This document shows, in pieces, positions 46,323 to 62,179 of a stretch of 64,000 bases of DNA. The DNA comes from a virus (lineage: Duplodnaviria > Heunggongvirae > Uroviricota > Caudoviricetes): positions 45,091 to 109,090 of the IMG/VR virus record IMGVR_UViG_3300022697_000186; one strand, 5' to 3'. The notes under the pieces were generated by a model that was given only the letters and a program-made list of their open reading frames with translations, was not told the origin of the DNA and did not search any database. How positions within the stretch are numbered: the stretch's first letter is position 1; the number at the start of each line of letters is the position of its first letter. The position numbers were made by a program, and so were the translations under genes.

Positions 46323-46353
46323 AGATAATTTTATTTAAAATAAGGAGACATAG

Positions 46354-48519
46354 ATGGCTATTGTAGCAACAGATTGGTCCGTGGACAGAGCCACGGGAAA
46401 TATTAGGTATATAGGAAACGACCATAATGGTGCAGCACCTTCCTATGCAACTGTAATCCAACTTCACAGATGGTTACAAGGGTTAGCAGATGATCCAGTA
46501 TCTTCTGGTGATGATGAAATGGATGCAACAGATGTTCTACCATCCAGTAGAGCTACAGATAATTTAATAACATTATTGGGTTCATATAATATTAATGCAA
46601 TAGCCGCAGAGCATTTATATGATGGTTCTATCGTACAAGGTACAGGTGGTACAGAAGTTTATTATGATGGTATCGTAAACTTTGGTAATGTTGGAGTTGT
46701 TATTCAGCTTCAACAAAATGGTGCAGTATTAGTAGATGATTTCTGGAACTATGGTGTAGGTGGAGCAGATACTACAAGTGCTGGTGCAGCATTTATGACT
46801 GATACAGGTCAATCATGGACTACTGATCAATGGGTAGGATATGTAATTAAGAATACTACAGATGGTAGTCAAGCATTAATCACAGCTAATACAGCAACAA
46901 CTGTAACAGGTGTTCTATTTGGAGGTACTGCTAATACTTGGACTTCAGCAGATGCTTATCTAATAAGTCAAGGATTAAACTCAGATTCAGCACAGGGTAT
47001 TTCTCACAGGTTCTTAATTCAGACTAGAACTGCTGGAGCTGATATTGATGGTAGAGTTCTTCTTGGAACAAACAGAACATTTGGTAATACTTATGGAGAG
47101 TTCAAGATTAACGGAACTTCTAGAGGTAATAACGTTCTAGCTTTATCAGATGCTGGAGATTTGAATAACACTACAGCAAGAGCTACAACAGATGCTTATA
47201 CAGATGTTTTTATTGATAGAACAGTAACTACAGCTACAATATCAGGTGTTAATGCTACAGGACAAACAATATTAAATGTATCAGATGGTACACAGTTTGC
47301 TGTAGGTGATTTTATTATGACTGCTGTTGATAACCATGAGTATAAAATTGTATCTATAGCAACTAATGCTTTAACTTTAAATAGAAACTTAGTTACTGCT
47401 ACTACTGGTGGTGAAGCTACTTACACTCTTAACATAGGTTTCAGTCAGATAGATGTCAATAATGATACAATTAGTGAAAATTACTATGCACATTGGGATA
47501 GAGGTGCTCAGTCAGTTAATAGTTTCTTCGAATATACGAAGAATTTGTCAGCTGATGCAACAAACCATTATTTATATGGTATTCCAGGTGAATTGTTTAG
47601 AGGTATATCACATGAGTTTGTAATAGATACTCCTACAGGTACTTTTGAAGCAGTTGAATCAGTATCTTGGACAGCAGGTACAGCAGGTACAGCAGGTACT
47701 GGACAGATGCTTGCTATAGATTCACCAACAGCAGGTACTAAAATGTGGGTTCAATTACTCACAGGTGGTACTCCTGGTGATAATGCAACAATTACTGGTG
47801 GTAGTTCTACAGCAACTGCTTTAGTGAATGTAACAGTAACGGATAGAAGTTCATTAATTAAAACCCCGTTTGTTGGTGCATCTACTGGTTCTGCATTGAT
47901 TGGTTCTTATGGATTAACAATTCAGACAGCGGATTTATCTTCTAATGATAAAGTGTTTGATTTAACTAATGCTCAGATTACTCCTCCAAATAATGTAACA
48001 TTCACAGTTAGTGGTGTTGTAACTGCAGAAGATTATATATTAGTAGGACCTTGGGATGGAACAACAACAGACGCTAACGGTGATCCAGAGATTAATTACA
48101 ACCAGCTTACAGTTAATGCTACAATTAATACGGATAATATTACATCATTGGTAACGGCTTCACCTATTCCTTCTGATACTCCTTCTACAGGGTTTATTAG
48201 AGTAGTTGATGATAATAGTTTCTTTAGGAAACTTCATTACTCAAGTTGGACTGGTTCTACTTTCACTATCGATACTACTGATGGTCAAGAGGATTTCTTA
48301 ACTGTTAATGCTACAGCAGGTAACAATGTGTTTATTGCTTACATTGATTTAGTAGCGACTGCAGGTAGTGAAGCATTTACATTTGTTTATAGTACTGATA
48401 GACAGTTTGTTATTAAAGTTCGTGATGGTGGTGGTACTCCAATTAAAGAGTATATCACATCAGGTACTATGGGTGTTAATGGTGGTTCAACAACTGCTAT
48501 TAGGACTGCTGATGCATAA
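46354..48519 (+). CDS. large Thr/Gly/Ser-rich virion structural protein (tail fibre/baseplate candidate)
   Basis: ORF track 721 aa; late operon; terminator downstream. Confidence 0.5.
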   Translation: MAIVATDWSVDRATGNIRYIGNDHNGAAPSYATVIQLHRWLQGLADDPVSSGDDEMDATDVLPSSRATDNLITLLGSYNINAIAAEHLYDGSIVQGTGGTEVYYDGIVNFGNVGVVIQLQQNGAVLVDDFWNYGVGGADTTSAGAAFMTDTGQSWTTDQWVGYVIKNTTDGSQALITANTATTVTGVLFGGTANTWTSADAYLISQGLNSDSAQGISHRFLIQTRTAGADIDGRVLLGTNRTFGNTYGEFKINGTSRGNNVLALSDAGDLNNTTARATTDAYTDVFIDRTVTTATISGVNATGQTILNVSDGTQFAVGDFIMTAVDNHEYKIVSIATNALTLNRNLVTATTGGEATYTLNIGFSQIDVNNDTISENYYAHWDRGAQSVNSFFEYTKNLSADATNHYLYGIPGELFRGISHEFVIDTPTGTFEAVESVSWTAGTAGTAGTGQMLAIDSPTAGTKMWVQLLTGGTPGDNATITGGSSTATALVNVTVTDRSSLIKTPFVGASTGSALIGSYGLTIQTADLSSNDKVFDLTNAQITPPNNVTFTVSGVVTAEDYILVGPWDGTTTDANGDPEINYNQLTVNATINTDNITSLVTASPIPSDTPSTGFIRVVDDNSFFRKLHYSSWTGSTFTIDTTDGQEDFLTVNATAGNNVFIAYIDLVATAGSEAFTFVYSTDRQFVIKVRDGGGTPIKEYITSGTMGVNGGSTTAIRTADA

Positions 48520-48552
48520 TCTTAATTGCGTATAGTAGTTAGGATAATTAAT

Positions 48553-48579
48553 GGGATGGTAACTAATCCTTACCATCCC
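48553..48579 (+). terminator. 10-bp stem hairpin GGGATGGTAA/TTACCATCCC
   Basis: direct reading. Confidence 0.6.
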
Positions 48580-48600
48580 TTATTTAATGAGGGTATTTAA

Positions 48601-49893
48601 TTGGCTTATAGGAATGACATAAGTGCACTTGGAGCTGATCACCATTGGATTTTCGATGGTAATTCTAATGATAACATAGGTACAGCTAATGGTGTAGATA
48701 CTACAATGATTTACACAGATGCAGCTATATCAAAAGATGCAACTAATTGTGCAACTACAGATGCTCTAACTGATAGAATAACTTTACCAACTACTATAAC
48801 AATTAATAATTCAGCACAAGCTAGAAAAGCTATAGCAGGATGGTTTGAAACTACTGCTTATCAAGCTCCTCCTACTAGGATATATGGTGAAGGTACACAA
48901 CTTACATGTTTTCAATTTTGTATGGGATTTGGTAATAATCTAATTTTCGAAGTTACAGAGCCTACAAATTTTGCCACAGGATTACAAATTTATGGGTTAG
49001 CTTTGATACCTAATAGAGTATATCATTTATGTGCTATATTCTCTGGTAACGCTTACGATAATTTGATAAAGTTATTCGTTGATGGAGTTTTACAAACAGA
49101 TGCTGACCCAGTAGCCAGACAACCTAATACAGCAAGTTTAGATAGTCGAGGCGTTGGTGAATTTGGGGATGCTGTGGGTACTACAGGATTAGGTGGAGGT
49201 GTAGTTTTACAGCAAGCTTCAAGAAATGGCAGATATCAGCATTGGGCGGCGTGGGGTGATACTGTTAATGCACTATTAACTGATACAGAAGTTAGAGTCA
49301 CCTTATTTGAAAGAGGAGCGTTAGCTCAGAATACAATAACTACCGGAACACAAGTAGCAATGCAAACATCAGTTGATTCTTTATCAAATCAAATAAATGC
49401 ACCGTGTTGTGTAGAAGTAGAAGCAGTTACTGGTGGAGGTAATTTTCAACTTACTTCTCCTATAACATATGATTCAAAAGCATCTATTCATGTGAGATAT
49501 AATGGAATTGCAGATACTTTGACATGGGTTAACACTTCAGGTGGGAACGCTTCCATTGGGTCTGCCCCATTTGGAGGTACTTTAATTATAGCCACGAGAC
49601 AAACACTAACAATAACAGTTAAAGATGCAACAGATAAAACTGCAATAAGTGGAGCAAGAGTATATATGAAAGCTGATGTTGGTGGTGATTTAGCTGTAGG
49701 AACTGTTATTATGAATACAACCACAAATATTTCTGGAGTAGCTACAATTAGTTATGATTATACAAATGATCAACCAATTATAGCTTATGTAAGAAAAGGT
49801 TCAGTATCTAAATTTTATTCAGAAGCAAGTATAGATGGACCTTTGACTTCTACTCCTTTTAATGCAATCGTTTTAATGGTACTGGATGAATAA
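48601..49893 (+). CDS. structural protein with LamG/jellyroll-like N-domain and conserved C-terminal module (TTG start)
   Basis: ORF track; N-term ...ADHHWIFDGNSND; shares C-terminal module with 49893 gene. Confidence 0.5.
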   Translation: MAYRNDISALGADHHWIFDGNSNDNIGTANGVDTTMIYTDAAISKDATNCATTDALTDRITLPTTITINNSAQARKAIAGWFETTAYQAPPTRIYGEGTQLTCFQFCMGFGNNLIFEVTEPTNFATGLQIYGLALIPNRVYHLCAIFSGNAYDNLIKLFVDGVLQTDADPVARQPNTASLDSRGVGEFGDAVGTTGLGGGVVLQQASRNGRYQHWAAWGDTVNALLTDTEVRVTLFERGALAQNTITTGTQVAMQTSVDSLSNQINAPCCVEVEAVTGGGNFQLTSPITYDSKASIHVRYNGIADTLTWVNTSGGNASIGSAPFGGTLIIATRQTLTITVKDATDKTAISGARVYMKADVGGDLAVGTVIMNTTTNISGVATISYDYTNDQPIIAYVRKGSVSKFYSEASIDGPLTSTPFNAIVLMVLDE

Positions 49894-52826
49894 TGGCAGC
49901 AGGTGATTTCTATATTAGGCGTAATAATGCAGAGACTTCTACTCTGCCTAATGCAGGTGCAAACCTAGACGCAACTTGGGATACCTTAGAACTTGATGAA
50001 GGTTCTGCCGCAACGTACAGTGCTGGTGTATATACCATTTCAAATATCGGTCCTCATTTAATTTTATACTCCGAAAGATTTTATACATCCGATACAACTA
50101 ACAATGAACGTATTGAAGGACAAGGTCGTTTAAGAATTGGTGGCGTAGATGTTGTAGAAGGTGCCGCTGAAGGCTATATAAGAAAAACAAGTGGTCAACA
50201 AGATATGGTTATCAGTGGTGCTTGTATATACCGAACCACTGGAATAAACACTAGTCTTATCACTAGATTTTCTAGAGGTGATGATTCTACAACAGGAACA
50301 GTAACGAGAGCTAGCGGTTTTGGTGGAGTACAGATATTCCAGCTAGATGATGCAAACAGCTTTGCAAGGTACTCTACGACTGCTACACAAACACTTTCAA
50401 CGACAGAAGCCATAGTAACAAATTGGACTAATGATGAAGAAGATGTTGGATTTTCGAGGACTGCTGACACAGTAACAATAAGTAGTGCTGGTCGTTATGT
50501 CATGTCAGTTAGTGGCACTGTTAGTATCACAGGAACTTCGAGAACAGAAGGAGTTATTTTCGCAAAAAATACATCTGTTGCTATAACAGGCTCTCGTGGT
50601 AGTTTTCATATGAGAGGTCTTGACGGTTGTCAGAATGGTGCTTTTAATGTCACTATGATTATAGATGTTGCTGCAAATGACACTATTACATTACATAAAG
50701 ATTTGACTGGAGGTTCCACTCCAACAATAGGTACTGGTATGGTATGGCAGTTTTGGAAATTACCAGCAGGTAGCGAAACTGCAATAATGGAAGCAACTAC
50801 TGGGGACATGAATACTCCAGGAGCGTTCACCTGGGACACACTTCCTCAAATAGATACATTAGGATTTACAGCTACGGCAGGAACATCTAATATTGATGTA
50901 GACCAAAATTGTCATTTAATTGCTTTCTGGCAGATGGGTAAGACTGTAGTAGATTCAGTACAGAGAGCTTATCCTATGTCGAGAGTTACTGTTAATTCAA
51001 ATCCTTTAAATTATGTGGCTGGTGGTTCTTACCACAGAAACTCTGGTGGTATCGGTGCGTTCATGTCACAAGGTGCTTCAAGTATTGTACCTAATGTAGC
51101 AAGTGGTAGGTCTATAGAAATTGAAATCACTCCGTTAGCCGCTAGCGGTGTATTAGATTGTGATACTGGACATTTCTCACTATTAAACTTAGAAAGTATA
51201 TTCACTTATACTTATTCAATACCTCCAGAAATAACAGACTTTAATACAACCGAGGTCTTTGATTGGGGGGATACAGGGTTAATTATTACAGGAAGTATAT
51301 TCGGAGCAACGCAAGGTGTAGGCAAGGTAGAGTTCTGGAGTGATACTGCTGGAACAATAAAAACAAGCCAGACAGTTAATAGTTGGTCTGCAACATCTAT
51401 ATCTATAGATACAGTCCAAGGTTCACTAAGTAACAATTCTATTGTGTACCTTGTTGTTACTACAAATAGTGCATTAGAAAGCAATAAACTTTTAGTCACA
51501 GTAGGATTAGTTGCTTACAGTGCGTTGATAGTATCGAACTTAAAAGCCGACCATTATTGGAGATTTAATAATACGATGGCTGATACTGGAGATACAGGTC
51601 CTGCCAGAGATATGCTTACTGAAATAGGGACTACCACCTATTCTACAGGAAATATAGTTGACGATAATACTCATGCTTTAATCTTAAATGAGATTACAGA
51701 AAGAATAGGTCCTGCAGATTCACCTAATATGAATATAACTATTGATGCCCAGCAAAGAACCTTATGCGCTTGGATACAGTTAAACAGTATCCAACATCCA
51801 TTAGGTTGTATATTCAAGGAAGGTGCTCAAATACAAAATATGGCATTCCTAGCTGGATATGGAAATATTATACTAGCTCAGATGGCAGATACTCCTAGCT
51901 TAACAGGAAATGTACAAGCGTGGTCAGATTATAAATTAACTGTATCCAGACCGTATCATATATGTATGCGGTATGATTACCCAAACAATTTTGAGTTGTT
52001 TGTAGACGGAAAATTACAAGCTAATACAGACGGCAATCCTTTAGGGGTTGGTACATTTAACTCACACTCTGGAGATATTGCAATAGGCTCACCTGATACC
52101 ACACTAGAAACTGGAGGGACTGACCTTACTTATGGAGGTATGGAGAATATGTTGATGTCGGACTTTGCAAGCTGGTCAGACAATTCAGCAGGAGTTAATG
52201 CAGGTGCAATTTCTAATTCAGATATTAAAGAACTTCTTTTTAGAAGAGGGGCTCTTCCAAATTATACTGTAGCCACTGCAATACAAGCGACTATGCAGAC
52301 AGATGTAACTACTAATCTTGATAATACTACAGTACCTGACTACCCGTTAGGTGTTAGGATTAATAAGGTTACAGGTAATGGTAATGTAGAATTAACATTT
52401 ACTAACGTTGTGTTTGATAGCCGTGTTACAGACCATATAGAGTATAGAGGTGGAGGTACAATAACTTTAGTAAACAGAGGTACATCTAATATAGTTGCTT
52501 CTCAATGTTTTTCTCCAGCAGGTGGTACAATATCAGTAGTTAATGACGTTAGTGTCACTATAACTGTAAAAGATATTAAAACAAAAGCTACAGTACAAAA
52601 CGCATTTGTCTTGTTAAAAGAAGACCCTAGTGGTGTAGAGCTTATAAAAACTGCGACAGATGTGAACGGTCAGGTTACTGTATTCTATCGTTACGGTGCA
52701 GACCAAGCAGTGATTGGGGTAGTTAGAAAAGGGACAACCTCACCTTTGTATAAAGAATCAGTTATTGCAGATACAATAATTAGTAGTGGTTTAGATATAA
52801 CTATATTTATGATTTCAGACGAATAA
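49893..52826 (+). CDS. large tail fibre-like protein containing internal copy of the 48601-gene domain architecture
   Basis: 977 aa; residues ~540-977 parallel the 430-aa neighbour (KADHYWRFNNT..., ...VTITVKDIKTKA..., ...VVRKGTTSPLYKES...SDE). Confidence 0.55.
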   Translation: MAAGDFYIRRNNAETSTLPNAGANLDATWDTLELDEGSAATYSAGVYTISNIGPHLILYSERFYTSDTTNNERIEGQGRLRIGGVDVVEGAAEGYIRKTSGQQDMVISGACIYRTTGINTSLITRFSRGDDSTTGTVTRASGFGGVQIFQLDDANSFARYSTTATQTLSTTEAIVTNWTNDEEDVGFSRTADTVTISSAGRYVMSVSGTVSITGTSRTEGVIFAKNTSVAITGSRGSFHMRGLDGCQNGAFNVTMIIDVAANDTITLHKDLTGGSTPTIGTGMVWQFWKLPAGSETAIMEATTGDMNTPGAFTWDTLPQIDTLGFTATAGTSNIDVDQNCHLIAFWQMGKTVVDSVQRAYPMSRVTVNSNPLNYVAGGSYHRNSGGIGAFMSQGASSIVPNVASGRSIEIEITPLAASGVLDCDTGHFSLLNLESIFTYTYSIPPEITDFNTTEVFDWGDTGLIITGSIFGATQGVGKVEFWSDTAGTIKTSQTVNSWSATSISIDTVQGSLSNNSIVYLVVTTNSALESNKLLVTVGLVAYSALIVSNLKADHYWRFNNTMADTGDTGPARDMLTEIGTTTYSTGNIVDDNTHALILNEITERIGPADSPNMNITIDAQQRTLCAWIQLNSIQHPLGCIFKEGAQIQNMAFLAGYGNIILAQMADTPSLTGNVQAWSDYKLTVSRPYHICMRYDYPNNFELFVDGKLQANTDGNPLGVGTFNSHSGDIAIGSPDTTLETGGTDLTYGGMENMLMSDFASWSDNSAGVNAGAISNSDIKELLFRRGALPNYTVATAIQATMQTDVTTNLDNTTVPDYPLGVRINKVTGNGNVELTFTNVVFDSRVTDHIEYRGGGTITLVNRGTSNIVASQCFSPAGGTISVVNDVSVTITVKDIKTKATVQNAFVLLKEDPSGVELIKTATDVNGQVTVFYRYGADQAVIGVVRKGTTSPLYKESVIADTIISSGLDITIFMISDE

Positions 52827-52839
52827 TAAGGAGTACAAT

Positions 52840-53139
52840 ATGTCCAAAAAGAAAAAGAAAAAAGATAAAGTAGATAAAGAGGTTCAGAATATGCCAAGTT
52901 TTAATTCAGGGTCTGTTGGTAAAGGCAAGCAACTTAGGAGTGAATCTAACAAGGTTGTAAATCCAGAAGTAGGTAAATTGATTATAGATAATCCAGCAAG
53001 AATATGTGAAGTATGTGATGAACCTACTTTCAGAGGTTTTATGTATAATGATTTAACTATTTATTTATGTGCTAAACATGAAGGTATAGAATTTCATAAG
53101 GAAGCTATAAAATCTGTTAATAAAATTATAGGAGTATAA
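52840..53139 (+). CDS. small protein with poly-Lys N-terminus and Zn-binding CxxC...CxxH
   Basis: ORF track. Confidence 0.5.
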   Translation: MSKKKKKKDKVDKEVQNMPSFNSGSVGKGKQLRSESNKVVNPEVGKLIIDNPARICEVCDEPTFRGFMYNDLTIYLCAKHEGIEFHKEAIKSVNKIIGV

Positions 53140-53367
53140 ATGAGTAATAATGGGACTAATCCAGAAATAGCGAAGGCACATCAAGAGATAGCTACTAGGA
53201 ATTCTAGGGCAGCAGTTGAGAAAGTTGATAGTACTAGAAATGAATTATTAGAAAGATTAAATCACTTAGAGCAGTTAGTAGCTACACAGCAACAACAGAT
53301 TACACAACTACAACAAAAGTATAACCTTCTTTTAACTAAGAATTTTGATGGTAGAGCAACTGAATAA
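53140..53367 (+). CDS. coiled-coil small protein
   Basis: ORF track. Confidence 0.5.
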   Translation: MSNNGTNPEIAKAHQEIATRNSRAAVEKVDSTRNELLERLNHLEQLVATQQQQITQLQQKYNLLLTKNFDGRATE

Positions 53368-54515
53368 TGTCACTATCAGTGGATTGGAGTGTTACACCTT
53401 GGTTAATTACAATACCTAAATCTGATTTAACATTAGAGACAGGTACTAAATATAAATTAACAGTAGATACATTCTGGCAGTTATTAAGGGACTTTAATGA
53501 TAGTCCTGAAGCTATGCCACTCCCTAAACTCTATTCTAGAATACCTGCTACAGCATCAACTCCAAGTATTACAGAAATAGATGGTACTTATTATGCTTTA
53601 CAATTTGAAAATGGAACTTACTCTGTTAACATAATTGACGGTAACACTAATATTAGAGATGTTGAATTGAAGAATTCTGTGTCAGTAAATACAAACAACA
53701 CTACTGGATTTATTGACCCTACATTCCTTGAGTATAGTGTCTTTGATGGTAGAGTTACAATGGATGTAGTTAATGGAGAAGCAGGTACTGGTAAGAATGC
53801 TCAAGGGTTTAGAATTGGCACTGGTAAAGCACCTGTTAATAATCTTGCAGATGCTAAGATTATTGCAGCGAATGATGGATTTAGTACAATAAAAGTTATA
53901 GGTAATTTTACTTTTGATGCTTCTGATATATTAAACGCATTTACAATGGAAGGAGAGAATCCTCAGAAGACTATGATTACATTAACAGAAGCTGCAATAA
54001 TAACTAATTGTGAATTCTTTCATGCTACAATATCAGGTTTCCTTGATGGGGGGACTACTGTACATCATTGTCATTTAGGTAATCTTGATTATATAGATGG
54101 GGATGTAGAAGATTGTGAATTAAACCTAGCGATTATAACTTTAAATAGTATATCGGCAGAATTTATAAGATGTTATTCAGGAGTCTCTGGGTCTCAAACA
54201 CCTATCATTGATTTAGGTGGAAGTGGTACAACATTAGGTATTCGTAATTATAATGGTGGAATTAAACTTATAAATAAAACTGGAGTGGATAAAGTTTCTA
54301 TCGACTTAAATTCAGGACATATAATTTTAGATAGCACTATTACTGCAGGAGAGATTATCTGTAGAGGAGTAGGAAAAATTACAAATAACAGTAGTGGAAC
54401 TACTGTTGATACTTCAGGATTAATTAATCCAAGTAATATAGCAAGTAATGTATGGTCTGATACTACAGGAGATAAAGTTTCTAAAAATACTGGACTAATT
54501 CCAGCGACATTGTAA
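53367..54515 (+). CDS. structural protein, possible beta-helix (tail spike-like)
   Basis: ORF track 382 aa. Confidence 0.45.
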   Translation: MSLSVDWSVTPWLITIPKSDLTLETGTKYKLTVDTFWQLLRDFNDSPEAMPLPKLYSRIPATASTPSITEIDGTYYALQFENGTYSVNIIDGNTNIRDVELKNSVSVNTNNTTGFIDPTFLEYSVFDGRVTMDVVNGEAGTGKNAQGFRIGTGKAPVNNLADAKIIAANDGFSTIKVIGNFTFDASDILNAFTMEGENPQKTMITLTEAAIITNCEFFHATISGFLDGGTTVHHCHLGNLDYIDGDVEDCELNLAIITLNSISAEFIRCYSGVSGSQTPIIDLGGSGTTLGIRNYNGGIKLINKTGVDKVSIDLNSGHIILDSTITAGEIICRGVGKITNNSSGTTVDTSGLINPSNIASNVWSDTTGDKVSKNTGLIPATL

Positions 54516-54525
54516 GGAGAATATA

Positions 54526-54882
54526 ATGGGTTTTAAAATATCAGAAATATCAAGTGAAGCAAAAGCAGTAATGGCTATGATTCTTATAGTTGGAGCTGGA
54601 TTTACTAGTGCCATCACATGGATGGAAGTTAAGTTTGTAGGAGCAGCTGAGTATGCAACTAAATCAGAACGAATGCAATTAGACATAGGTCAATTAAGAG
54701 AAGCTTATACTACAGAAAAACAAACACAAAGATTTGAATTTTTAGAGGAACAAATATCTAAATATGAAGAAAAGTATCCTGATGGAAGTAATACAGCACC
54801 ACCTAGAATTAAAAATACTTGGAATAGGTACTTAAAAGAATACTCTATTTTAGAACAAAAAGTATTTGATAAGTATAAATAA
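54526..54882 (+). CDS. TM + coiled-coil protein
   Basis: ORF track. Confidence 0.5.
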   Translation: MGFKISEISSEAKAVMAMILIVGAGFTSAITWMEVKFVGAAEYATKSERMQLDIGQLREAYTTEKQTQRFEFLEEQISKYEEKYPDGSNTAPPRIKNTWNRYLKEYSILEQKVFDKYK

Positions 54883-55371
54883 ATGTCAGTAATAACAACT
54901 AAATCTTTTACTGCAGGTGGAGTAACTATTACAAAAGGATCAGGATCTCCTACATCAATACCTAAGAAACATGGAGATATGTATATTGATGTAACAAATG
55001 ATTATGTATATGTAGCAACAGATATATTAAATTCAAGTAATTGGATTATTGTTTCTAATGCAGGTGCAGGCGGTGTTTATAATCAAGCAGAGAAGAATGC
55101 ACTTGAATTAGAAATGGGATTTAAAAATGCTAATGGTTCAAATTATAAAGAACTTGGATATGATACAACTAGTGGAGATTTAAGTTCTATAAATATATAC
55201 ACAACTAGTGCTAAAACTACGCAGTTATTTAGTAAAACATTAGGATATAATTCTAATGGTAATTTAATACAAGTAAGTACAACAAGATCATCTGATAATA
55301 AAAATTTAACAAAAAATATAAGTTATAATATATATGGTGATTTATTTTCAATAGAGGCAATTTTAATATGA
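54883..55371 (+). CDS. hypothetical structural protein
   Basis: ORF track. Confidence 0.5.
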   Translation: MSVITTKSFTAGGVTITKGSGSPTSIPKKHGDMYIDVTNDYVYVATDILNSSNWIIVSNAGAGGVYNQAEKNALELEMGFKNANGSNYKELGYDTTSGDLSSINIYTTSAKTTQLFSKTLGYNSNGNLIQVSTTRSSDNKNLTKNISYNIYGDLFSIEAILI

Positions 55372-56369
55372 CATTAGAAAAATTTTCGTATAAATATTTA
55401 GAAAGTATGCAACTACCATGGATTATATGTAAACCATGGAAGTGGGTTGTAACCAGATTATTTAAAGGTATAGATATATTAAATCTTCTTTATAAAAATC
55501 CACATTATAAACAGCTAGCAGAACTTAAAGGTAAACCTACATTAAATACTTTAAAAAATAAATATATCAAAGAGTTAAAATTTTTAAAAAATGGTTTATA
55601 TAATTATAAATATGAAAATAATATTGATGATGTTGGAGATCAAGGATTACATAATGGTATATATGCGGCATATAGATTAAATATTTTTAATGATAATAAA
55701 TTTTTTTTAAATTATATAAAACAAATTCTTATTAGAAATGATGATGGTGATCTTGTATTATTACGTGGTATAAATATTCCTAAAAATAAAAATATTGATG
55801 ATTACGAATTTGGTAATTTACTTAGAGATGATTGTAGTGGAGATCAACTAGGTGGATTTGTTTTAGCTTGTTCAGAATACAGAAAACAAAATGGTAAATT
55901 ACCTGACATAGTACATGAATTCTTTAATCAATTTTTTAAAGAAATTGAATGTAAGTTTTTAAATATACCTTTTATAAAATTTAAATCATTAAATTGTAAA
56001 TTATATCAACTAGATGGTACCGTTAGTAAACATGGTAATTTAAATCCTAATATATTTATGTCTGCATTTCCAATTGGTATTGTATTAGCTGCTGCAGTTG
56101 TATCAGGTAATTGGAAAGCTTTTAATTATTTATATTATAAATGTGGTTATAAATATATGTTACCTCATTTAAATCTTTATGTATTAGGTGGAGAAATTGA
56201 TACAATTAAACCTGTAGTGTTTGGTAAAAAAATTACTGGACAAAGAAGTTGGTTTAATTATAATTTAGCTGCTGTAGGTCTTTCAATATTAAATACATGG
56301 GATAAACATTCAAAACGAAAATTTTTGTATCAACTTGCTCTGGACAAACTATTAGTAGACACAAGTTGA
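55368..56369 (+). CDS. hypothetical Asn/Lys/Tyr-rich protein terminated by TGA that is followed in-frame by an 89-codon start-less open frame
   Basis: ORF track; see finding. Confidence 0.5.
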   Translation: MTLEKFSYKYLESMQLPWIICKPWKWVVTRLFKGIDILNLLYKNPHYKQLAELKGKPTLNTLKNKYIKELKFLKNGLYNYKYENNIDDVGDQGLHNGIYAAYRLNIFNDNKFFLNYIKQILIRNDDGDLVLLRGINIPKNKNIDDYEFGNLLRDDCSGDQLGGFVLACSEYRKQNGKLPDIVHEFFNQFFKEIECKFLNIPFIKFKSLNCKLYQLDGTVSKHGNLNPNIFMSAFPIGIVLAAAVVSGNWKAFNYLYYKCGYKYMLPHLNLYVLGGEIDTIKPVVFGKKITGQRSWFNYNLAAVGLSILNTWDKHSKRKFLYQLALDKLLVDTS

Positions 56370-56639
56370 AACCCATGGTGTACACTGTTAGCAAAAGAAG
56401 CTGATTTTGATGTAAAACATGAAAGTATTGTTGAAAGTTTAGAGTATTTTAGAACGTTTAGAGTCACTTTACTAGACTCTACTAAAACTGTATACTATCC
56501 GCTGGGTGGACAGAATTTAGATTGGTCATGGCAAAGATGCCCATTTAAACTAGATAAATCACCAGAACATATACATTATGGGAAATTAGATTTTTTATAT
56601 GTATTAGGTTTAGCTAAAAAATTGAAAGTGCTAATGTAA
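56370..56639 (+). other. in-frame downstream open frame (89 codons, no start codon) ending TAATG on next gene; candidate readthrough extension or disrupted gene
   Basis: hand translation of frame continuing from TGA 56367-56369. Confidence 0.4.
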
Positions 56640-57058
56640 TGTCAGATTCAAATTGGATAATATCACATTTTGCTGATTCTGGTGTACCAAAAACGGGTCT
56701 CTCTCCTATTATAACAATTATTGATTTAGCTACAGATAGTGTAGTAGTTAATGGAGCATCAATGAGTGAAGTTGCTAATGGTACATATAAATATAACTTT
56801 ATAACATTAGATCCCAAGAATGATTATTCAATAAGTGTGGATGGAGGAAATTTATTATCAGATGTAGATAGATATCAAGCTTCTACAAATGAAAGTTATA
56901 ACGGTGATATTAGAAAACATCTCACCAACAAGCAAACAATAACTAAAATTGATGATAATAATTCAACACATATTGTATTTGCAGATGATGGTATAAGTGC
57001 AGATTCATCTTATGCTTATTCTAAATCTGGAAATACTGAAACTAGGAACCCTATATGA
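56639..57058 (+). CDS. hypothetical structural protein
   Basis: ORF track. Confidence 0.5.
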   Translation: MSDSNWIISHFADSGVPKTGLSPIITIIDLATDSVVVNGASMSEVANGTYKYNFITLDPKNDYSISVDGGNLLSDVDRYQASTNESYNGDIRKHLTNKQTITKIDDNNSTHIVFADDGISADSSYAYSKSGNTETRNPI

Positions 57059-57786
57059 TGAAATATGTAAGTGAAGAATATATAGAAGAAAGTTTATTAG
57101 AAGATTTTGGTGGAATAGTTTTTGTTGTTGTATCCTATATATTATTTATGTTTACTATACTAATAATAGGTAAAATAGGAGTAGCTAGAGGTAACTCTTT
57201 ATTTAAAGAATTAAAAGATGATTTAATAAAAATAGTTAAACCTAAACTTAAATCTTTAACTTCTAAATTAATACCTATTGGTCGTAGTCTTTATAAGATA
57301 ATATCTAAAAATAAAGATCTAATTATATATTATGAATATATTAATAAAATTGTTGGTAATAAGAAAAAAGTACATAGGAGTGGAAAATTAAAGGATTTAA
57401 TTGATATTAAAATATATGATAAATCTATATTGGGGTTTATGAAAAACCGTTTATGGAGAGGTGGATGGTTTGGAACAAAAAGAAGTTTGTTTAAAAGAGG
57501 CAAATTTGCTTCAAATTTTAGAATAGATTTTTTTAATGATGGTAATAATTCTCCTTATTTTGTAGATTCACTAAATAGTAAAGATGATTTAGATTATAAT
57601 TATATGAGTAATGTATTTTCAGATATAAATATTGATTTTGATTCTAATAGAGGACAACAATTAATAGAATCATTAATTAAAATTAATCCAATTGTTGTTT
57701 CTGCTAACAAAAAAATCTCAAATTACTTTAAATATTTTGTTGAAGAAGTAACTAATGAAATGAAAATATTAATAGAAGAAAAATAA
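57055..57786 (+). CDS. membrane-anchored hypothetical protein
   Basis: ORF track; TM helix near N-terminus. Confidence 0.5.
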   Translation: MMKYVSEEYIEESLLEDFGGIVFVVVSYILFMFTILIIGKIGVARGNSLFKELKDDLIKIVKPKLKSLTSKLIPIGRSLYKIISKNKDLIIYYEYINKIVGNKKKVHRSGKLKDLIDIKIYDKSILGFMKNRLWRGGWFGTKRSLFKRGKFASNFRIDFFNDGNNSPYFVDSLNSKDDLDYNYMSNVFSDINIDFDSNRGQQLIESLIKINPIVVSANKKISNYFKYFVEEVTNEMKILIEEK

Positions 57787-58053
57787 ATGGCTATAGAAAA
57801 TACAGCAATATTTAGTAATGGAATTTTTCCTAGTTTTCCGTTACCTGTTACAAAGATAGTTGGCGGTGGACCAGGTGCTAGTAGTATTATACGTAGGAAA
57901 GAAAAAGGTGTATGTGTAATGCCTAAGTTTAAATTTTTTAAATTAGATAATGAAGAAGTACTTGAAGCAACAGCTAATATCAAGAATGTTACATTAGAAA
58001 ATGGAGATAACATAAATGTTACTATTGGACGCATCAAAACCGAAGACTCTTAG
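57787..58053 (+). CDS. hypothetical small protein
   Basis: ORF track. Confidence 0.45.
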   Translation: MAIENTAIFSNGIFPSFPLPVTKIVGGGPGASSIIRRKEKGVCVMPKFKFFKLDNEEVLEATANIKNVTLENGDNINVTIGRIKTEDS

Positions 58054-58846
58054 TTTAGACTTTGAAGTTGAAGGTTTAAAAAAGGAAGACCTAAAAATAC
58101 TATTGCGTGTTGAAATCGCAGGAGTAGAATATGGTTTTCCAGGTGAGTTTACTAAAAGTGGTAAAGTTAAAATATCTATACCTCCAATTTCAGAAGTATG
58201 TTCTGGTTCATATAACATGGATGATAAATATCCAGCAAGAATTGATGTCACTGGTAGTGGGTTTTATTTAAATCCTTGGTCTGATGAGGTTTCTATTAAA
58301 TCTTCACCTAAAATAGAAATGACAATTAAAGAAGATACTGGGACAGATGATGGTTTACCTAAAGCTAAAATTAGTTCAATTAAAGAAAGTGATTTAATTG
58401 AGGAAGAGCCTGAAGTTGAAGAAATTGTAAAAGAAGAAAAAATAATTAAACAAAAAATCAAAGAAGAAGTAATTGAAGAAGATACAGATGATGATCTACT
58501 TTCTGATGATTCATTAAAACTAATTGAAGAAGTAGAAGGTCTAATTGAAAAACGTCCAATAAAAAGGAAAGCTAGACCAATAAGATCTGAAAATTCAATA
58601 ACTTCAAAATATTTTGATGAATTAAAAATATATGCACTTGATAATAAATCTATATTAGAACATAACAAAATAGCTTTAAAATCTGCTCATAGAAGAATAC
58701 ATCAATTATATATTACATCTACTGAAAGAGGTAATATAGGATTCTCTAAGGCACTTAAAAAGGCTCATAAACTGATAGTACAAGAAATGACTAATAAAGG
58801 AGTTAAACATAAGAAAGTCTTAATAGAAAACATTTCTAAAATGTAA
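58016..58846 (+). CDS. protein with highly acidic Glu/Asp-rich central region (prohead core/scaffold-like candidate)
   Basis: ORF track; SD GGAGA 8 nt upstream. Confidence 0.5.
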   Translation: MLLLDASKPKTLSLDFEVEGLKKEDLKILLRVEIAGVEYGFPGEFTKSGKVKISIPPISEVCSGSYNMDDKYPARIDVTGSGFYLNPWSDEVSIKSSPKIEMTIKEDTGTDDGLPKAKISSIKESDLIEEEPEVEEIVKEEKIIKQKIKEEVIEEDTDDDLLSDDSLKLIEEVEGLIEKRPIKRKARPIRSENSITSKYFDELKIYALDNKSILEHNKIALKSAHRRIHQLYITSTERGNIGFSKALKKAHKLIVQEMTNKGVKHKKVLIENISKM

Positions 58847-58932
58847 GGGGTTGTAAAGTTGTTTATTACCAAAGTTCTTTAAATACAAAGGACCCTTTAC
58901 ATGTCACTTTTTTTATATACATGGAGTAATAA

Positions 58933-59838
58933 ATGGCTTATAAATATTTCCCTCAGCTAGATTTTTATTTTTCTACCTACTGGCAATTCAATAGAGAAAT
59001 AACTATTCATGATAATATTTTAGATCCTGAATCAATAGCAAATATTGATATTAAACGAGGTTCATTTGTAGAAATGTTATTTTCTAATACATATGAATTA
59101 AGTTATTATCATACATTATTTGAAACTGTTGGTATAGGTACATTAACTAAAAGTATTAGTGAAAGATTACATACAATTAGTTCAACTATAACATGTTATG
59201 TATCTGATTCTACGAGCGGTATAGATGTATTTTCTTTAGCTCCTGAGGACAATATAATGTTAGATCTTTTATTAGAATACAGACAAACTATTACACCTGA
59301 TTTAAATACAGTAACATATTCTTCTTTGACAACTAATTTATCTAAGTTAATATATAAATATTTAGATTTAGTGGTTAACTTAAATTTTGATACTTTAAAT
59401 AATAAAGTATTAGATAGTAGTTCAACAAGTATTTTAGAAAATTTATATGAAGTGTATGTTACAAATGAAACACATAGAATTATTAGAAATTGGTCTTTCA
59501 TGGTTGATGCAGGTATAGTAGAACTTAGACCAGTAAGAGATAAATTTGAAGTAACTACTGCTATAGAAACAGCAGAGAAAGTAACAACATCAGGCGATCC
59601 ATATGACTTCGATGTTTATATGTATAAAAATGGAGACCCACTAATTCCAATTACAGATTATACAATAACACAAGACTCAACAGGTACAATTGATGTTAGT
59701 TGGTCTACAACTCCTACAACAATAGTCGTTGGTGATTGGGTAGTGTTAGATTATTATGTGCGAGTAATACAATCTGATACAGGTACAACTCCAATGGATG
59801 GTCAAAATGAAATCACATCAAATTTGAGTTGGATTTAA
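58933..59838 (+). CDS. hypothetical structural protein
   Basis: ORF track. Confidence 0.5.
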   Translation: MAYKYFPQLDFYFSTYWQFNREITIHDNILDPESIANIDIKRGSFVEMLFSNTYELSYYHTLFETVGIGTLTKSISERLHTISSTITCYVSDSTSGIDVFSLAPEDNIMLDLLLEYRQTITPDLNTVTYSSLTTNLSKLIYKYLDLVVNLNFDTLNNKVLDSSSTSILENLYEVYVTNETHRIIRNWSFMVDAGIVELRPVRDKFEVTTAIETAEKVTTSGDPYDFDVYMYKNGDPLIPITDYTITQDSTGTIDVSWSTTPTTIVVGDWVVLDYYVRVIQSDTGTTPMDGQNEITSNLSWI

Positions 59839-59841
59839 TTC

Positions 59842-61347
59842 ATGTCTGAAAATGAAACATTTAAAGTCTTTCAAAAAATATATGATTGGTTAAAATCAGA
59901 AGGTACTATAAGTACTGACCTTGATTATAAATTTGCACAAACTGCATTATCTGAAAAACAAAAAGTTACAGCATTCTTTGAAGCTATAATAGATCAACCT
60001 GCTTTTCTAACTGAAGATCATAAAAGAATAAGAGAATTTTTAATTAACTGGTATGCCACACATAGATCCCAAGTTACTAAAACTAGGCAGGTTACTGATG
60101 CATTTAACTTAGATACTGAATCACTTAATGAAGTTATTAAGGGAATGGGATTTCCTTTTCCAGATAGAATTGGTACGAACGAAACAAAGGCTCAATTTTT
60201 ATTAGATTTAGTTTCGTTATACCAGAAAAAAGGAACACCAGAAGTATTAGTTAAATCATTACAAACATATTTTGGTTTAACAGATGTTGTTCTATCCGAA
60301 TGGTGGGTACATAAACAGACTGATGATTTAATTGTAGCTAAATCTAGACCAGTATATCCTACTACTAAAAAAGGTCAAAGAGAATTATATATAACTTCTG
60401 ATATAGATATTTTTACATCTACAGATCCATTATGGAAAATGTCAGGAGCAGAAATATTAGAATTATATCAAATTAATAAAATATCATTACCATCAATTAC
60501 ACCATATGTTTCTTTACAAGCTGGTGTAAATGTATCTAGTTTAAATGCTTTCTTCTCTGTAATAACAAAAAGAATGAATGAAGATTATGATTACTGGGTA
60601 GCTAATGGGACTTTAGTAAAGGATATAACCCTTACAAAATTTGAAGGACAATTTTCATTTTTAGAAGTGTCTTTAGCAATACATTATCTATTTGGTAATG
60701 ACAATTTTTCTACAGATAAAAATTTCTTACAATATACAGGACAATATGCTCCAATAGATCCTGATGGTACTGGTAATAATAATATTGATGTAAATTTAAT
60801 TATAGATGAATGGAATAATTTAACTACAAGACAAACGACTAAATTAGAAAGAGAAACAAATTTAGCTTCAAGAAATTCATCCTTTACAAATACTACTACT
60901 AATTCATCAATCTTCATTAATATATTAAAGAATCCTGATATATATTTGGATTTAATTAATCCTATATTTAAAGCAGAAATAGATGAAGTTACAGGTAATC
61001 TTGATCCAGAAAAAGTACCCACAGTATTAGAGAGTATTATTTTAGATTATGAATTTTATTTAAAGGAATCAATGCCTTTACTTAACAATGCTTTGAGTTT
61101 TATGATGGTTGGTTCACCTACATGGGACGGTCTAGATGATGTTATGGAAGTATTAAAACCATATAGAGTTAGACTTAAAGAATTTTTAATATCATTTGTT
61201 TGGAACGATCCTCTAGCAGATAGTCAACTGGAAGCTGATGAATTTTCAATGGCTCAAACTGTTTTATTTGTAGATAAACATCCAACTCATCCATTTGATA
61301 CTGGTATTGTATATGATAGTTTTAGTGTAGAAATAATAAATTTATAA
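59842..61347 (+). CDS. hypothetical structural protein (501 aa)
   Basis: ORF track. Confidence 0.55.
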   Translation: MSENETFKVFQKIYDWLKSEGTISTDLDYKFAQTALSEKQKVTAFFEAIIDQPAFLTEDHKRIREFLINWYATHRSQVTKTRQVTDAFNLDTESLNEVIKGMGFPFPDRIGTNETKAQFLLDLVSLYQKKGTPEVLVKSLQTYFGLTDVVLSEWWVHKQTDDLIVAKSRPVYPTTKKGQRELYITSDIDIFTSTDPLWKMSGAEILELYQINKISLPSITPYVSLQAGVNVSSLNAFFSVITKRMNEDYDYWVANGTLVKDITLTKFEGQFSFLEVSLAIHYLFGNDNFSTDKNFLQYTGQYAPIDPDGTGNNNIDVNLIIDEWNNLTTRQTTKLERETNLASRNSSFTNTTTNSSIFINILKNPDIYLDLINPIFKAEIDEVTGNLDPEKVPTVLESIILDYEFYLKESMPLLNNALSFMMVGSPTWDGLDDVMEVLKPYRVRLKEFLISFVWNDPLADSQLEADEFSMAQTVLFVDKHPTHPFDTGIVYDSFSVEIINL

Positions 61348-61384
61348 AAAATTAATTTAAAAATAGTTCAAGGAGATTATTTGA

Positions 61385-62179
61385 ATGAAAAAAGTACAGA
61401 AGATTAATGTAGGTATTACAGATAATCAAAAGAAAAATATTAAAGATAAAGTTTTATCATCTACACCAATTAATGATAAAACCAAATTCCAACCTAAAGG
61501 TCGTGTAAGAGTTTATGAGAAAAAAGTAGATTCAGATGGAAAAAAGAAATTATTCTTGATTGAGGATACTAGTAATTTAATTGTATATAGAGGAAGACAT
61601 TGGTTACTACAAAGAGCTTTCAATCAAAATTTAACTACAACTACTGGTGATAGATCTGGGTGGTCTGACAAATGGATAAATTGGTTTGGGGTTGGTATTG
61701 GAGGTTCTACAGCTAACCCATTGGTACCTGCATCTCCTATATTAACAGATTGTGAATTAAATACTCATGGTACAATGGATACTGGTACTAGCAGAGTTGT
61801 TATTCCTGGTGGAAATGAATTTCATAGTTTTGATACTAATTATCCTAGATTTATATTTGATACAGATATAACTAATTCTGAATTATGTACTGGTTGCACT
61901 GCTCTTGATGCAGAGAATGGCACAGGTCCATTTAATTGTGATGGTTTTTTAATTGGATTAACAAAGATTACATTACTTTCTGCTGAAGCTAATGGTGGAA
62001 CAATTCCTGGTAATTCTCAAGATATTAATGAAGCAGGATTATTTGTTAGTGAAAGTGATTTGACAACATATTCTAGTTTTACAAGTACATCAATGCAAAC
62101 ATTTGCAAGAGTAACATTCTCTACTATACGTAAAGATGATTCTAGAGAACTAATTTTTTCATGGTATATTTATTTTTAA
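61385..62179 (+). CDS. hypothetical structural protein
   Basis: ORF track. Confidence 0.5.
   Translation: MKKVQKINVGITDNQKKNIKDKVLSSTPINDKTKFQPKGRVRVYEKKVDSDGKKKLFLIEDTSNLIVYRGRHWLLQRAFNQNLTTTTGDRSGWSDKWINWFGVGIGGSTANPLVPASPILTDCELNTHGTMDTGTSRVVIPGGNEFHSFDTNYPRFIFDTDITNSELCTGCTALDAENGTGPFNCDGFLIGLTKITLLSAEANGGTIPGNSQDINEAGLFVSESDLTTYSSFTSTSMQTFARVTFSTIRKDDSRELIFSWYIYF

What the first reader, a model, noticed from the sequence alone, without database searches (positions are those of the whole stretch)
55368..56639. In-frame TGA separating a 333-codon ORF from an 89-codon start-less open frame that ends TAATG on the next gene
After the TGA at 56367-56369 the same reading frame stays open for 89 codons (NPWCTLLAKEADFDVKHESIVESLEYFRTF...GLAKKLKVLM) up to a TAA at 56637-56639. 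That TAA overlaps the ATG of gene 56639 by one base, which is the typical coupling for real adjacent cistrons.

The extension has no ATG, GTG or TTG in frame, so it can only be expressed by decoding or reading through the TGA. A chance 89-codon open frame in DNA this AT-rich is improbable.

Possible explanations are as follows.
- Programmed UGA readthrough giving a C-terminally extended minor structural variant.
- Localized stop-codon recoding of a late gene, as described for some large phages.
- A recent nonsense mutation creating a pseudogene.
- A sequencing error.
Basis: seen in the sequence. Interest (0 to 1): 0.6.

Follow-up and report, generated by a model that had tools for sequence, protein, structure and literature searches.

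The report
One phage gene split by TGA
A large phage's gene for a barrel-shaped, glycosidase-like protein carries one premature TGA stop exactly where its relatives have tryptophan, so this is one gene with a probably recent, possibly leaky nonsense change, not two genes or a special genetic code.

Summary
ATG 55368, in-frame TGA 56367-69, 89 further sense codons, and TAA 56637-39 overlapping the ATG of the next gene. The extension is coding sequence of the same gene. Nine distant homologs (373-404 aa) are all uninterrupted. Their last ~75-98 residues align collinearly with the extension (E down to 4e-20). The TGA occupies a column that is Trp in five homologs, Tyr in two and His in two, so TGG to TGA is one transition. 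A model of a full-length homolog is an (alpha/alpha)6 barrel, and the stop would remove its last helices and 7 of the 31 family-invariant residues. The extension shows no decay. TGA is otherwise a normal stop here (17-21 genes). No other gene in the 64 kb is TGA-interrupted. No tRNA, SECIS-like element, release factor or stimulatory RNA structure was found. No homolog shares the stop. Best reading: a recent Trp-to-opal nonsense change (or consensus error) in a single gene, giving mostly a truncated product, with near-cognate Trp-tRNA readthrough able to restore wild-type protein at low level. Tolerated suppression or incipient recoding is not excluded, because the rest of the 236-kb contig could not be retrieved. 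Ordinary kind, modest interest.

The parts
55368..56366 (+). Codons 1-333 of the gene (N-terminal ~80% of an (alpha/alpha)6-barrel-like protein). The ATG overlaps the TGA of upstream gene 54883-55371 as ATGA.
   Evidence: sequence and ORF; 9 homologs at E 3e-35 to 7e-11; the alignment starts at residue 1; fold.
56367..56369 (+). In-frame TGA (codon 334) in the context AGT TGA AAC. It occupies exactly one alignment column, with no indel. That column is Trp in 5 homologs, Tyr in 2 and His in 2.
   Evidence: TGG to TGA is a single G-to-A transition (direct from the genetic code).
56370..56636 (+). Codons 335-423: the conserved C-terminal part of the same protein, with motifs EYFxTF and YPLGGQxxDWxWQRxPFK...LDFLYV. 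There is no usable start codon.
   Evidence: BLASTP E = 1e-13 and 4e-20 to the C-termini of P0002 and P0006; a single HSP crosses the stop against L004; coding score; leave-one-out profile score of 0.81 bits per residue, within the range of intact members.
56637..56639 (+). TAA, the ancestral stop of the full-length gene. It overlaps the ATG of the next gene by one base (TAATG).
   Evidence: The homolog C-termini end at the same alignment position, within a few residues.
56639..57058 (+). Downstream 139-codon gene with no Shine-Dalgarno sequence. It belongs to the class of genes in this module that start at or on the upstream stop, so it is presumably translated by coupling to ribosomes that finish the extension frame.
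   Evidence: genes after spacers have GGAG/AGGAG at -9 to -13. Overlapped or abutting genes 49893, 53367, 54883, 56639 and 57787 have none.

Best explanation
Positions 55368-56639 are one ancestral gene of about 422 codons. It encodes an uncharacterised (alpha/alpha)6-barrel, six-hairpin-glycosidase-like protein of a T4-type-capsid jumbo phage.

Shown: codon 334 reads TGA, where the closest-fitting ancestral state is Trp (TGG), one transition away.

Inferred: the change is evolutionarily recent, a real nonsense variant in the sequenced population. Ribosomes mostly terminate at 56367-69 through RF2. That releases a 333-residue fragment lacking the last barrel helices and the conserved YPLGGQ..WQRxPFK..D region, so the fragment is probably non-functional.

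A small fraction of ribosomes would read UGA with near-cognate Trp-tRNA(CCA), a few percent by analogy with E. coli. Because that reinserts Trp, it would regenerate the wild-type full-length protein. Only those ribosomes reach the TAATG junction that couples to gene 56639, which has no Shine-Dalgarno sequence. The mutation should therefore also be polar on the downstream gene.

This is not a programmed two-isoform device and not a genome-wide code change.
For: Single gene:
- All 9 homologs are uninterrupted at 373-404 aa.
- The extension aligns collinearly to their C-termini at 28-44% identity, as good as the N-terminal part at 29-38%.
- The TGA fills one column with W in 5, Y in 2 and H in 2 homologs, with no indel.

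The C-terminal part is integral to the protein:
- 7 of 31 invariant columns lie in the extension.
- The stop maps to P0009 W310, ahead of helices 312-318, 324-331 and 371-386.

Recent, or still constrained:
- The leave-one-out profile ratio of C-terminal to N-terminal score is 1.13, against 0.75-1.33 for intact members.
- The open frame is compatible with less than ~10% neutral divergence.

Not recoding:
- 17-21 genes end in TGA, mostly in ATGA overlaps.
- There are 105 TGG codons and no other in-frame TGA in 9237 codons, although A-ending codons are preferred 76-91% in comparable codon families.
- No other TGA-interrupted gene exists in the window.
- No tRNA, no Rfam match, and no release-factor domain among the 25 window proteins scanned against Pfam.

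Not programmed:
- No homolog shares the stop.
- The downstream RNA fold has z = +0.39.
- No terminator or promoter signal.

Readthrough chemistry: UGA is read by Trp-tRNA in competition with RF2 at about 2-4% in E. coli (PMC10570021). Coupling.
Against: - The extension shows no decay at all, and all 7 invariant residues are kept. That is equally what one would see if the extension were still translated and under selection.
- The downstream gene depends on coupling, which makes a stable null allele costly.
- Stops follow TGA and TAG termini unusually closely, which hints that weak stops are read through at a noticeable rate in this system.
- No reads, close relatives or population data were available. 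A real mutation cannot be separated from a consensus error.
- Only 64 of 236 kb could be searched for a suppressor tRNA.
Confidence: 0.55

Rival explanations
1. The TGA is tolerated or exploited because UGA is decoded at a useful rate during infection. Possible causes are a phage-encoded opal suppressor tRNA elsewhere in the 236-kb genome, a host with weak RF2, or a host that reads UGA as Trp. On this view the gene is functional. The TGA may delay or limit expression of this late-region enzyme and the genes coupled to it, as an early step of TGA-to-Trp recoding.
For: - The TGA sits at a Trp column.
- The extension is fully conserved with no relaxed constraint.
- Downstream gene 56639 lacks a Shine-Dalgarno sequence and is coupled to the extension's stop.
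- The genome is 28% GC, and TGA (17%) and TAG (15%) stops are rare.
- A second in-frame stop lies within 3 codons after 67% of TGA termini and 61% of TAG termini, against 26% of TAA termini. The frame-matched control gives 9/11 against 41/110, p = 0.005.
- Published path to recoding: low GC, then suppressor tRNA, then recoded stops in structural and lysis genes (bioRxiv 10.1101/2021.08.26.457843).
- Phages compatible with two codes show clustered stops at gene termini (PMC10746230).
Against: - There is only one such codon in 64 kb and about 100 genes.
- No suppressor tRNA or release-factor gene was found in the window.
- Reading TGA as sense would fuse 26247-26699 to the next gene and lengthen three other genes by 13-35 codons.
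- The crude coding-density gain under code 4 is 3.8 points, below the 5% criterion, and a TAG-sense control already gives 1.5. The real gain is 267 nt, or 0.4%.
- The back-up-stop signal rests on small numbers and is not specific to TGA. Against the strictest control p = 0.036.
- No homolog shares the stop.
Confidence: 0.27
2. Sequencing or assembly artefact. The true base at 56369 is G (TGG, Trp), and the gene is intact in the real phage, or the consensus captured a minority defective variant.
For: - A single G-to-A difference fully explains the anomaly.
- Everything else about the gene is intact.
- The source is a metagenome-assembled JGI contig of 236,091 bp with a single member sequence.
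Against: There is no homopolymer or repeat at the site (AGTTGAAAC). Substitution errors in a consensus are rare (general knowledge, not tested). No reads were available, so there is no direct evidence either way.
Confidence: 0.13
3. Two genuine cistrons or a split protein. The 89-codon piece would be made separately from a non-canonical start and assemble with the 333-residue piece.
For: In-frame CTG 56385 and ATT 56427 exist.
Against: - Neither codon has a Shine-Dalgarno-like sequence upstream, while this phage uses strong GGAG motifs for independently initiated genes.
- No homolog is split, and the family is always a single 373-404 aa chain.
- The homology runs right up to the codon after the TGA.
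Confidence: 0.03
4. Selenocysteine insertion at the UGA.
For: UGA is the Sec codon. That is the only support.
Against: Homologs have W, Y or H at this column, never Cys. There is no Rfam SECIS match. The hairpin downstream is no more stable than in shuffled sequence, z = +0.39.
Confidence: 0.01

Closest known systems
Leaky opal (UGA) nonsense alleles read by near-cognate Trp-tRNA(CCA) in bacteria
   Same: A premature in-frame UGA in an otherwise intact gene. UGA is the leakiest stop. Trp-tRNA competes with RF2, at about 2-4% in E. coli reporters (PMC10570021). Native UGA readthrough products have been seen in E. coli K-12 (PMC5373646). Here readthrough would reinstate the residue most homologs have.
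   Different: The host and its RF2 efficiency are unknown. No product was measured. The +4 base (A) is not diagnostic.
Programmed UGA readthrough in phage Qbeta (coat protein to A1 minor capsid protein). This comparison rests on my own knowledge and was not checked with the tools.
   Same: A UGA read by Trp-tRNA at low frequency gives a C-terminally longer phage protein from one ORF.
   Different: In Qbeta the upstream product is a complete functional protein, the extension is an extra domain, and the arrangement is conserved. Here the upstream part is an incomplete domain, the downstream part is the conserved end of that domain, and no homolog has the stop.
TGA-to-Trp (code 4) stop-codon-recoded phages (bioRxiv 10.1101/2021.08.26.457843)
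   Same: A low-GC, large phage with an in-frame TGA at a Trp position in a gene of the late/structural region.
   Different: Recoded phages carry many in-frame TGAs, gain more than 5% coding density under code 4, and often encode tRNA(UCA), RF1 or Trp-tRNA synthetase. This window has one such codon, uses TGA as a stop in 17-21 genes, and encodes no tRNA.
[quoted passage not shown]
   Same: In-frame TGA is absent from genes, and different stop codons lie close together at gene termini.
   Different: That signature is defined by having no in-frame TGA at all. The signal here is statistical, rests on small numbers, and is shared by TAG termini. The host is unknown. Homologs have Trp at the column, not the Gly of code 25.
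Six-hairpin (alpha/alpha)6-barrel glycoside hydrolases (such as GH100 invertase 5z73, GH15, GH8, GH76)
   Different: Sequence identity is only 6-13%. There is no Pfam, PHROG or PDB sequence match. Catalytic residues were not identified. The conserved C-terminal loop is modelled with low confidence (pLDDT below 50 at residues 334-369).

Membership tests
Programmed stop-codon readthrough (two functional isoforms) | The leaky stop is conserved at the same position in orthologs. | tested here: not met
   All 9 homologs have a sense codon there (W, Y or H) and are single ORFs. No close relatives exist to test within the lineage.
Programmed stop-codon readthrough (two functional isoforms) | The upstream ORF alone encodes a complete, functional protein, and the extension adds a module. 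| tested here: not met
   The stop falls inside the conserved domain. 7 of 31 invariant columns and the last 3 helices of the barrel model lie downstream of it. No family member ends there.
Programmed stop-codon readthrough (two functional isoforms) | A stimulatory context or RNA structure 3' of the stop. | tested here: not met
   The fold of 56355-56480 has z = +0.39 against shuffles. No Rfam match. The UGA-A context is not diagnostic.
Programmed stop-codon readthrough (two functional isoforms) | Both the short and long products are detected. | not testable with these tools
   This needs proteomics or ribosome profiling of infected cells.
Stop-codon-recoded (code 4, TGA=Trp) phage | Many in-frame TGA codons in conserved genes, especially late genes. 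| tested here: not met
   One case in 64 kb. The other candidates are antisense shadows or in-frame neighbouring genes. 105 TGG against 0 other in-frame TGA in 9237 codons.
Stop-codon-recoded (code 4, TGA=Trp) phage | Coding density rises by more than 5% (contigs of 100 kb or more) when TGA is read as sense. | tested here: not met
   The crude ORF-based density goes from 80.1% to 83.9% (+3.8), with +1.5 for a TAG-sense control. The genuine gain is 267 nt, or 0.4%. Prodigal was not available.
Stop-codon-recoded (code 4, TGA=Trp) phage | TGA is not used as a genuine terminator. | tested here: not met
   17-21 genes end in TGA, 14-16 of them in ATGA overlaps with the next start.
Stop-codon-recoded (code 4, TGA=Trp) phage | Suppressor tRNA(UCA), and/or phage RF1 or Trp-tRNA synthetase. 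| tested here: inconclusive
   None in the window. The remaining ~172 kb of the 236,091-bp contig could not be retrieved.
Gene inactivated by a recent nonsense mutation | Orthologs are uninterrupted and collinear across the stop. | tested here: met
Gene inactivated by a recent nonsense mutation | The stop is one substitution away from the orthologous sense codon. | tested here: met
   TGA against TGG (Trp in 5 of 9 homologs).
Gene inactivated by a recent nonsense mutation | The downstream part shows relaxed constraint or decay. This is expected only if the mutation is old. | tested here: not met
   No decay: leave-one-out ratio 1.13, within 0.75-1.33. This limits neutral divergence to less than about 18-20%. 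The mutation is therefore recent, or the segment is still translated.
Gene inactivated by a recent nonsense mutation | The variant is supported by reads and is polymorphic or absent in close relatives. | not testable with these tools
   No reads. No close relative in the viral, metagenome or genome collections.
Selenoprotein gene | A bacterial SECIS hairpin directly 3' of the UGA, and Cys in orthologs. | tested here: not met
Six-hairpin (alpha/alpha)6 glycosidase superfamily | The (alpha/alpha)6 barrel fold. | tested here: met
Six-hairpin (alpha/alpha)6 glycosidase superfamily | Sequence-family membership and identifiable catalytic acid/base residues. | tested here: not met
   No Pfam, PHROG or PDB sequence match. 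The invariant D91, D155, D159 and D408 are candidates, but they were not mapped to an active site.

The most novel reading that the evidence does not exclude
The phage experiences substantial UGA decoding late in infection. The cause would be an opal-suppressor tRNA encoded in the unseen ~172 kb, or a host that reads UGA as Trp. On this reading the codon is the first recoded TGA of an AR9/phiR1-37-related jumbo-phage lineage at the very onset of TGA-to-Trp recoding. It would gate a late glycosidase-like enzyme and the genes translationally coupled to it. The close back-up stops after TGA and TAG termini would be the accompanying adaptation.
Probability: 0.1. Interest if true: 0.65.

Novelty: new member of a known kind. 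Interest (0 to 1): 0.25.

Why it matters
The practical value is for annotation. The 333-aa gene call in the public protein collection is a truncated call. The 270-nt "intergenic" stretch is the conserved C-terminus of the same protein. The locus should be annotated as one interrupted gene, either as a pseudogene or as a transl_except candidate.

The work also defines a small, previously uncharacterised family of (alpha/alpha)6-barrel proteins in large phages, with 9 metagenomic members and no Pfam or PHROG family.

If the minority reading were true, this would be a rare snapshot of the first step of stop-codon recoding in a phage group where recoding has not been described. The present evidence does not favour that.

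Tried and rejected
**Searches that found nothing**
- Nucleotide and tblastn searches of 50,697 phage records with the locus or the fused protein: no match.
- Pfam and PHROGs on both halves, and Pfam on all family members: nothing significant.
- PDB sequence search with the family profile: nothing.
- BFVD viral structure search: nothing with E of 0.001 or better.
- Word-indexed protein search: it returned only the window's own protein for the fused query, the window's own protein plus P0009 for the profile, and nothing for the 89-aa piece.
- Degenerate DNA motif scans of the viral and bacterial genome collections: no hits.

**Searches with limited yield or blocked**
- The metagenome motif scan gave only two loci, both uninterrupted.
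I therefore used the 333-aa part and a full-length homolog instead.
- The single-sequence AF2 model of the 333-aa part was too poor to use (pLDDT 52).
- The AlphaFold database (afdb50) library was unavailable.
- Retrieving the rest of the 236-kb source contig failed by exact-protein look-up and by metagenome scan.

**Ideas rejected**
- A second TGA-interrupted gene at 63111-63560 (-): it is the antisense shadow of a plus-strand repeat-containing ORF.
- Genome-wide code 4.
- Selenocysteine.
- Independent initiation inside the extension.
- An internal terminator or promoter.
- A chance ORF.
Full report
**1. The observation**

The sequence is as described.
- An ATG at 55368 overlaps the stop of the upstream gene as ATGA. 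It opens 333 sense codons.
- A TGA follows at 56367-56369, in the context AGT TGA AAC.
- The same frame then stays open for 89 codons, to a TAA at 56637-56639.
- The last A of that TAA is the first base of the ATG of the next gene (56639-57058).

One detail needs correcting. In-frame TTG, GTG and ATG codons do exist in the extension, but only in its last six codons (56622, 56628, 56634). They cannot express the extension.

The open frame is not chance.
- None of 2169 off-frame stop-to-stop intervals in the window's long genes reaches 89 codons; the maximum is 69.
- Only 0.028% of shuffles of the segment stay open.
- A codon-usage log-odds trained on 22 long genes of the window gives +0.40 bits per codon in this frame. 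That is above all 486 off-frame control windows (mean -1.36), though near the low end of true coding windows.

**2. What it is: one gene**

Sequence searches at first found nothing.
- No Pfam or PHROG family matched.
- No nucleotide or tblastn match was found in 50,697 phage records.
- The word-indexed protein search found only the window's own 333-aa gene call, from a JGI contig of 236,091 bp.

An exhaustive HMMER search with the 333-aa part found eight real homologs, P0002-P0009, at E 3e-35 to 7e-11 and 373-404 aa. A ninth hit, P0010, is repetitive junk. In every homolog the match ended roughly 75-100 residues before the C-terminus.

Those tails are homologous to the 89-codon extension.
- BLASTP of the extension alone gives E = 4e-20 (44% identity) to residues 300-385 of P0006, and E = 1e-13 to residues 302-386 of P0002.
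- In the multiple alignment the extension is collinear with all eight C-termini. It contains 7 of the 31 family-invariant columns: F361, F364, L379, W388, R390, P392 and D408.
- A ninth member, found by a degenerate DNA motif scan (L004:3124-4320, 398 aa), aligns in a single HSP straight across the stop.

The TGA occupies exactly one alignment column with no indel. Homologs there have Trp (P0002, P0004, P0006, P0009, L004), Tyr (P0003, P0007) or His (P0005, P0008). TGG to TGA is a single transition.

It comes out the other way: orthologs are single, uninterrupted genes.

**3. What the protein is**

The similarity is at fold level only. There is no sequence-family match and no viral structural relative.

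The TGA maps to W310 of P0009. Truncation there would remove helices 312-318, 324-331 and 371-386, plus the conserved loop YPLGGQxxDWxWQRxPFK. That loop is modelled with low confidence. From this I infer that the 333-residue product is an incomplete domain and probably non-functional.

That argues against the classical readthrough design, in which a complete protein gains an extra module.

**4. Genomic setting and the genetic code**

The window is 28% GC. It encodes a Gp23-type major capsid protein at 37556-39007. Its nearest cultured relatives, at about 23-25% identity, are the jumbo phages phiR1-37, AR9/PBS1 and Staphylococcus phage S6.

The gene lies in a long same-strand block (about 44-62 kb) of mostly unannotatable, probably late genes.

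TGA is a working stop in this genome.
- 17 of 103 candidate genes of 60 aa or more end in TGA, or 21 of 127 at 40 aa or more. Most of these stops sit in ATGA overlaps, including both neighbours of the gene.
- In 9237 codons of long genes there are 105 TGG codons and no other in-frame TGA. Yet A-ending codons are preferred 76-91% in comparable two-fold codon families. A TGA=Trp code would therefore have left many TGAs.

A direct scan for other TGA-separated coding segments found only antisense shadows and one pair of in-frame neighbouring genes. A candidate at 63111-63560 (-) turned out to be the antisense of a plus-strand ORF containing a 69-bp repeat.

The window holds none of the usual supporting machinery.
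- No tRNA.
- No Rfam family, and therefore no SECIS-like element.
- No release-factor domain among the 25 window proteins scanned against Pfam.
- No significant RNA structure 3' of the TGA, z = +0.39.
- No terminator or promoter excess.

The published criterion for recoded phages is a coding-density gain above 5% for contigs of 100 kb or more. It is not met. My crude gain is 3.8 points, a TAG-sense control already gives 1.5, and the real gain is 267 nt.

**5. How old is the stop, and is the extension still used?**

The extension is as similar to homologs (28-44% identity) as the upstream part is (29-38%).

In leave-one-out profile scoring the extension gets 0.81 bits per residue, against 0.72 for the window's own N-terminal part. 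The ratio of 1.13 lies inside the 0.75-1.33 range of intact members. There is no detectable relaxation of constraint.

This is weak evidence about mechanism. Simulated neutral drift leaves the frame open with probability 0.45 at 3.7% divergence, 0.13 at 10% and 0.03 at 20%. The data say only that the TGA is recent or that the extension is still translated.

Two observations lean toward some translation.
- **Coupling.** Genes in this module that follow a spacer carry strong GGAG/AGGAG motifs. Genes whose start overlaps or abuts the upstream stop have none. Gene 56639 is of the second kind. Its translation appears to depend on ribosomes that finish the extension frame.
- **Back-up stops.** A second in-frame stop lies within 3 codons after 67% of TGA termini and 61% of TAG termini, against 26% of TAA termini. 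In a frame-matched control the figures are 9 of 11 against 41 of 110 (p = 0.005), or p = 0.036 against the strictest control. This resembles the clustered stops reported for phages compatible with two codes (PMC10746230). The numbers are small and the effect is not specific to TGA.

**6. Mechanism**

Shown: this is one ancestral gene, the TGA sits at a Trp column, the C-terminal part is integral and undecayed, and the window shows no recoding.

Inferred: RF2 terminates most ribosomes at 56367-69. Near-cognate Trp-tRNA reads UGA at a low rate, about 2-4% in E. coli reporters (PMC10570021), and native UGA readthrough products are documented in E. coli (PMC5373646). Because Trp is probably the ancestral residue here, readthrough would regenerate wild-type protein, making this a phenotypically leaky allele. 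Only those ribosomes reach the TAATG junction, so the allele should also reduce expression of gene 56639.

My probabilities:
- About 0.55 for a real, recent nonsense variant of this kind.
- About 0.27 for tolerated or exploited decoding. This covers a suppressor tRNA in the unseen 172 kb, a leaky or TGA-sense host, or incipient recoding.
- About 0.13 for a consensus or sequencing error.
- 0.03 or less each for a split gene with a non-canonical start, or selenocysteine.

**7. Comparison with known systems, and novelty**

It works like a leaky opal nonsense allele.

It is not a member of the programmed-readthrough class. The stop is not conserved, the upstream part is not a complete protein, and there is no stimulator.

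It is not a member of the recoded-phage class. There is a single codon, TGA is used as a stop, and there is no machinery in the window. The tRNA criterion remains open for the rest of the genome.

The protein belongs at fold level to the six-hairpin barrel superfamily, but to no described sequence family.

The phenomenon is ordinary: a new member of a known kind. What is new is minor. The public gene call needs correcting, and a small orphan family of large-phage proteins can now be recognised.

**8. Limits**

- No reads and no close relatives were available.
- The remaining 172 kb of the contig was inaccessible.
- The structure is of a 26-36%-identical homolog, with a low-confidence C-terminal loop.
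- Gene sets for the statistics are ORF-based, not from a trained gene caller.

Noticed in passing
window-wide; for example 54883-55371, 56639-57058, 1770-2024, 2452-2655, 6960-7199, 7196-7495: TGA and TAG termini are followed by a second in-frame stop within 3 codons far more often than TAA termini (67% and 61% against 26%). 16 of 21 TGA stops sit inside ATGA overlaps. The frame-matched control gives 9/11 against 41/110 (p = 0.005), or p = 0.036 against ATGA-start controls. This may mean weak stops are leaky in this phage-host system. It may also be a 'dual-code-compatible' signature like that described in PMC10746230.
   Followed up: partly
window 63580-63779 (+): A 69-bp (23-codon) tandem repeat, 2.9 copies at 79-90% identity. 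It reads EKTEKTNLKKYGVDHPSKSKEIR in a plus-strand ORF that runs off the window end. The same region mimics TGA-separated coding segments on the minus strand.
   Followed up: partly
window 39079-40755 (-) and 40778-42676 (-): Two large paralogous HNH/homing-endonuclease-like genes (phrog_3339 at E 1e-113 and 1e-120; DUF7487; the second with a Mom-like domain). They lie back to back, immediately downstream of the Gp23-type major capsid gene 37556-39007 and on the opposite strand.
   Followed up: no
window 37556-39007 (+): The major capsid protein is Gp23-like. Its best cultured matches (23-25% identity) are the AR9/PBS1, phiR1-37 and Staphylococcus S6-type jumbo phages. The 236-kb source is therefore a very distant member of that assemblage.
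   Followed up: partly
window 26247-26699 (-) and 25743-26237 (-): A 150-codon gene ends in TGA and is in frame with the next gene, which starts 3 codons later. Reading TGA as sense would fuse them into about 320 codons. This is most likely just adjacent in-frame genes. It was not checked against homologs.
   Followed up: no
window 53367-54515 (+): The 382-aa protein two genes upstream has a repetitive Gly/Asn/Thr-rich sequence that suggests a beta-helix (tailspike or depolymerase-like) protein. Next to the barrel glycosidase-like gene, this would suggest a polysaccharide-degrading pair. This is by eye only; there is no Pfam or PHROG hit.
   Followed up: no
window 44026-62179 (+), gene starts: There are two classes of translation start. 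Genes after a spacer have strong GGAG/AGGAG at -9 to -13. Genes whose ATG overlaps or abuts the upstream stop (49893, 53367, 54883, 56639, 57787) have no Shine-Dalgarno sequence. This implies extensive translational coupling and a Shine-Dalgarno-using host.
   Followed up: partly
L001 2731-3900; L004 3124-4320: Homologs of the gene sit among HNH, Fic, TSCPD and dCMP-deaminase genes, not in an obviously structural module. They are followed by a ~180-265-nt gap, not a coupled gene. The family's genomic context is therefore not conserved.
   Followed up: no
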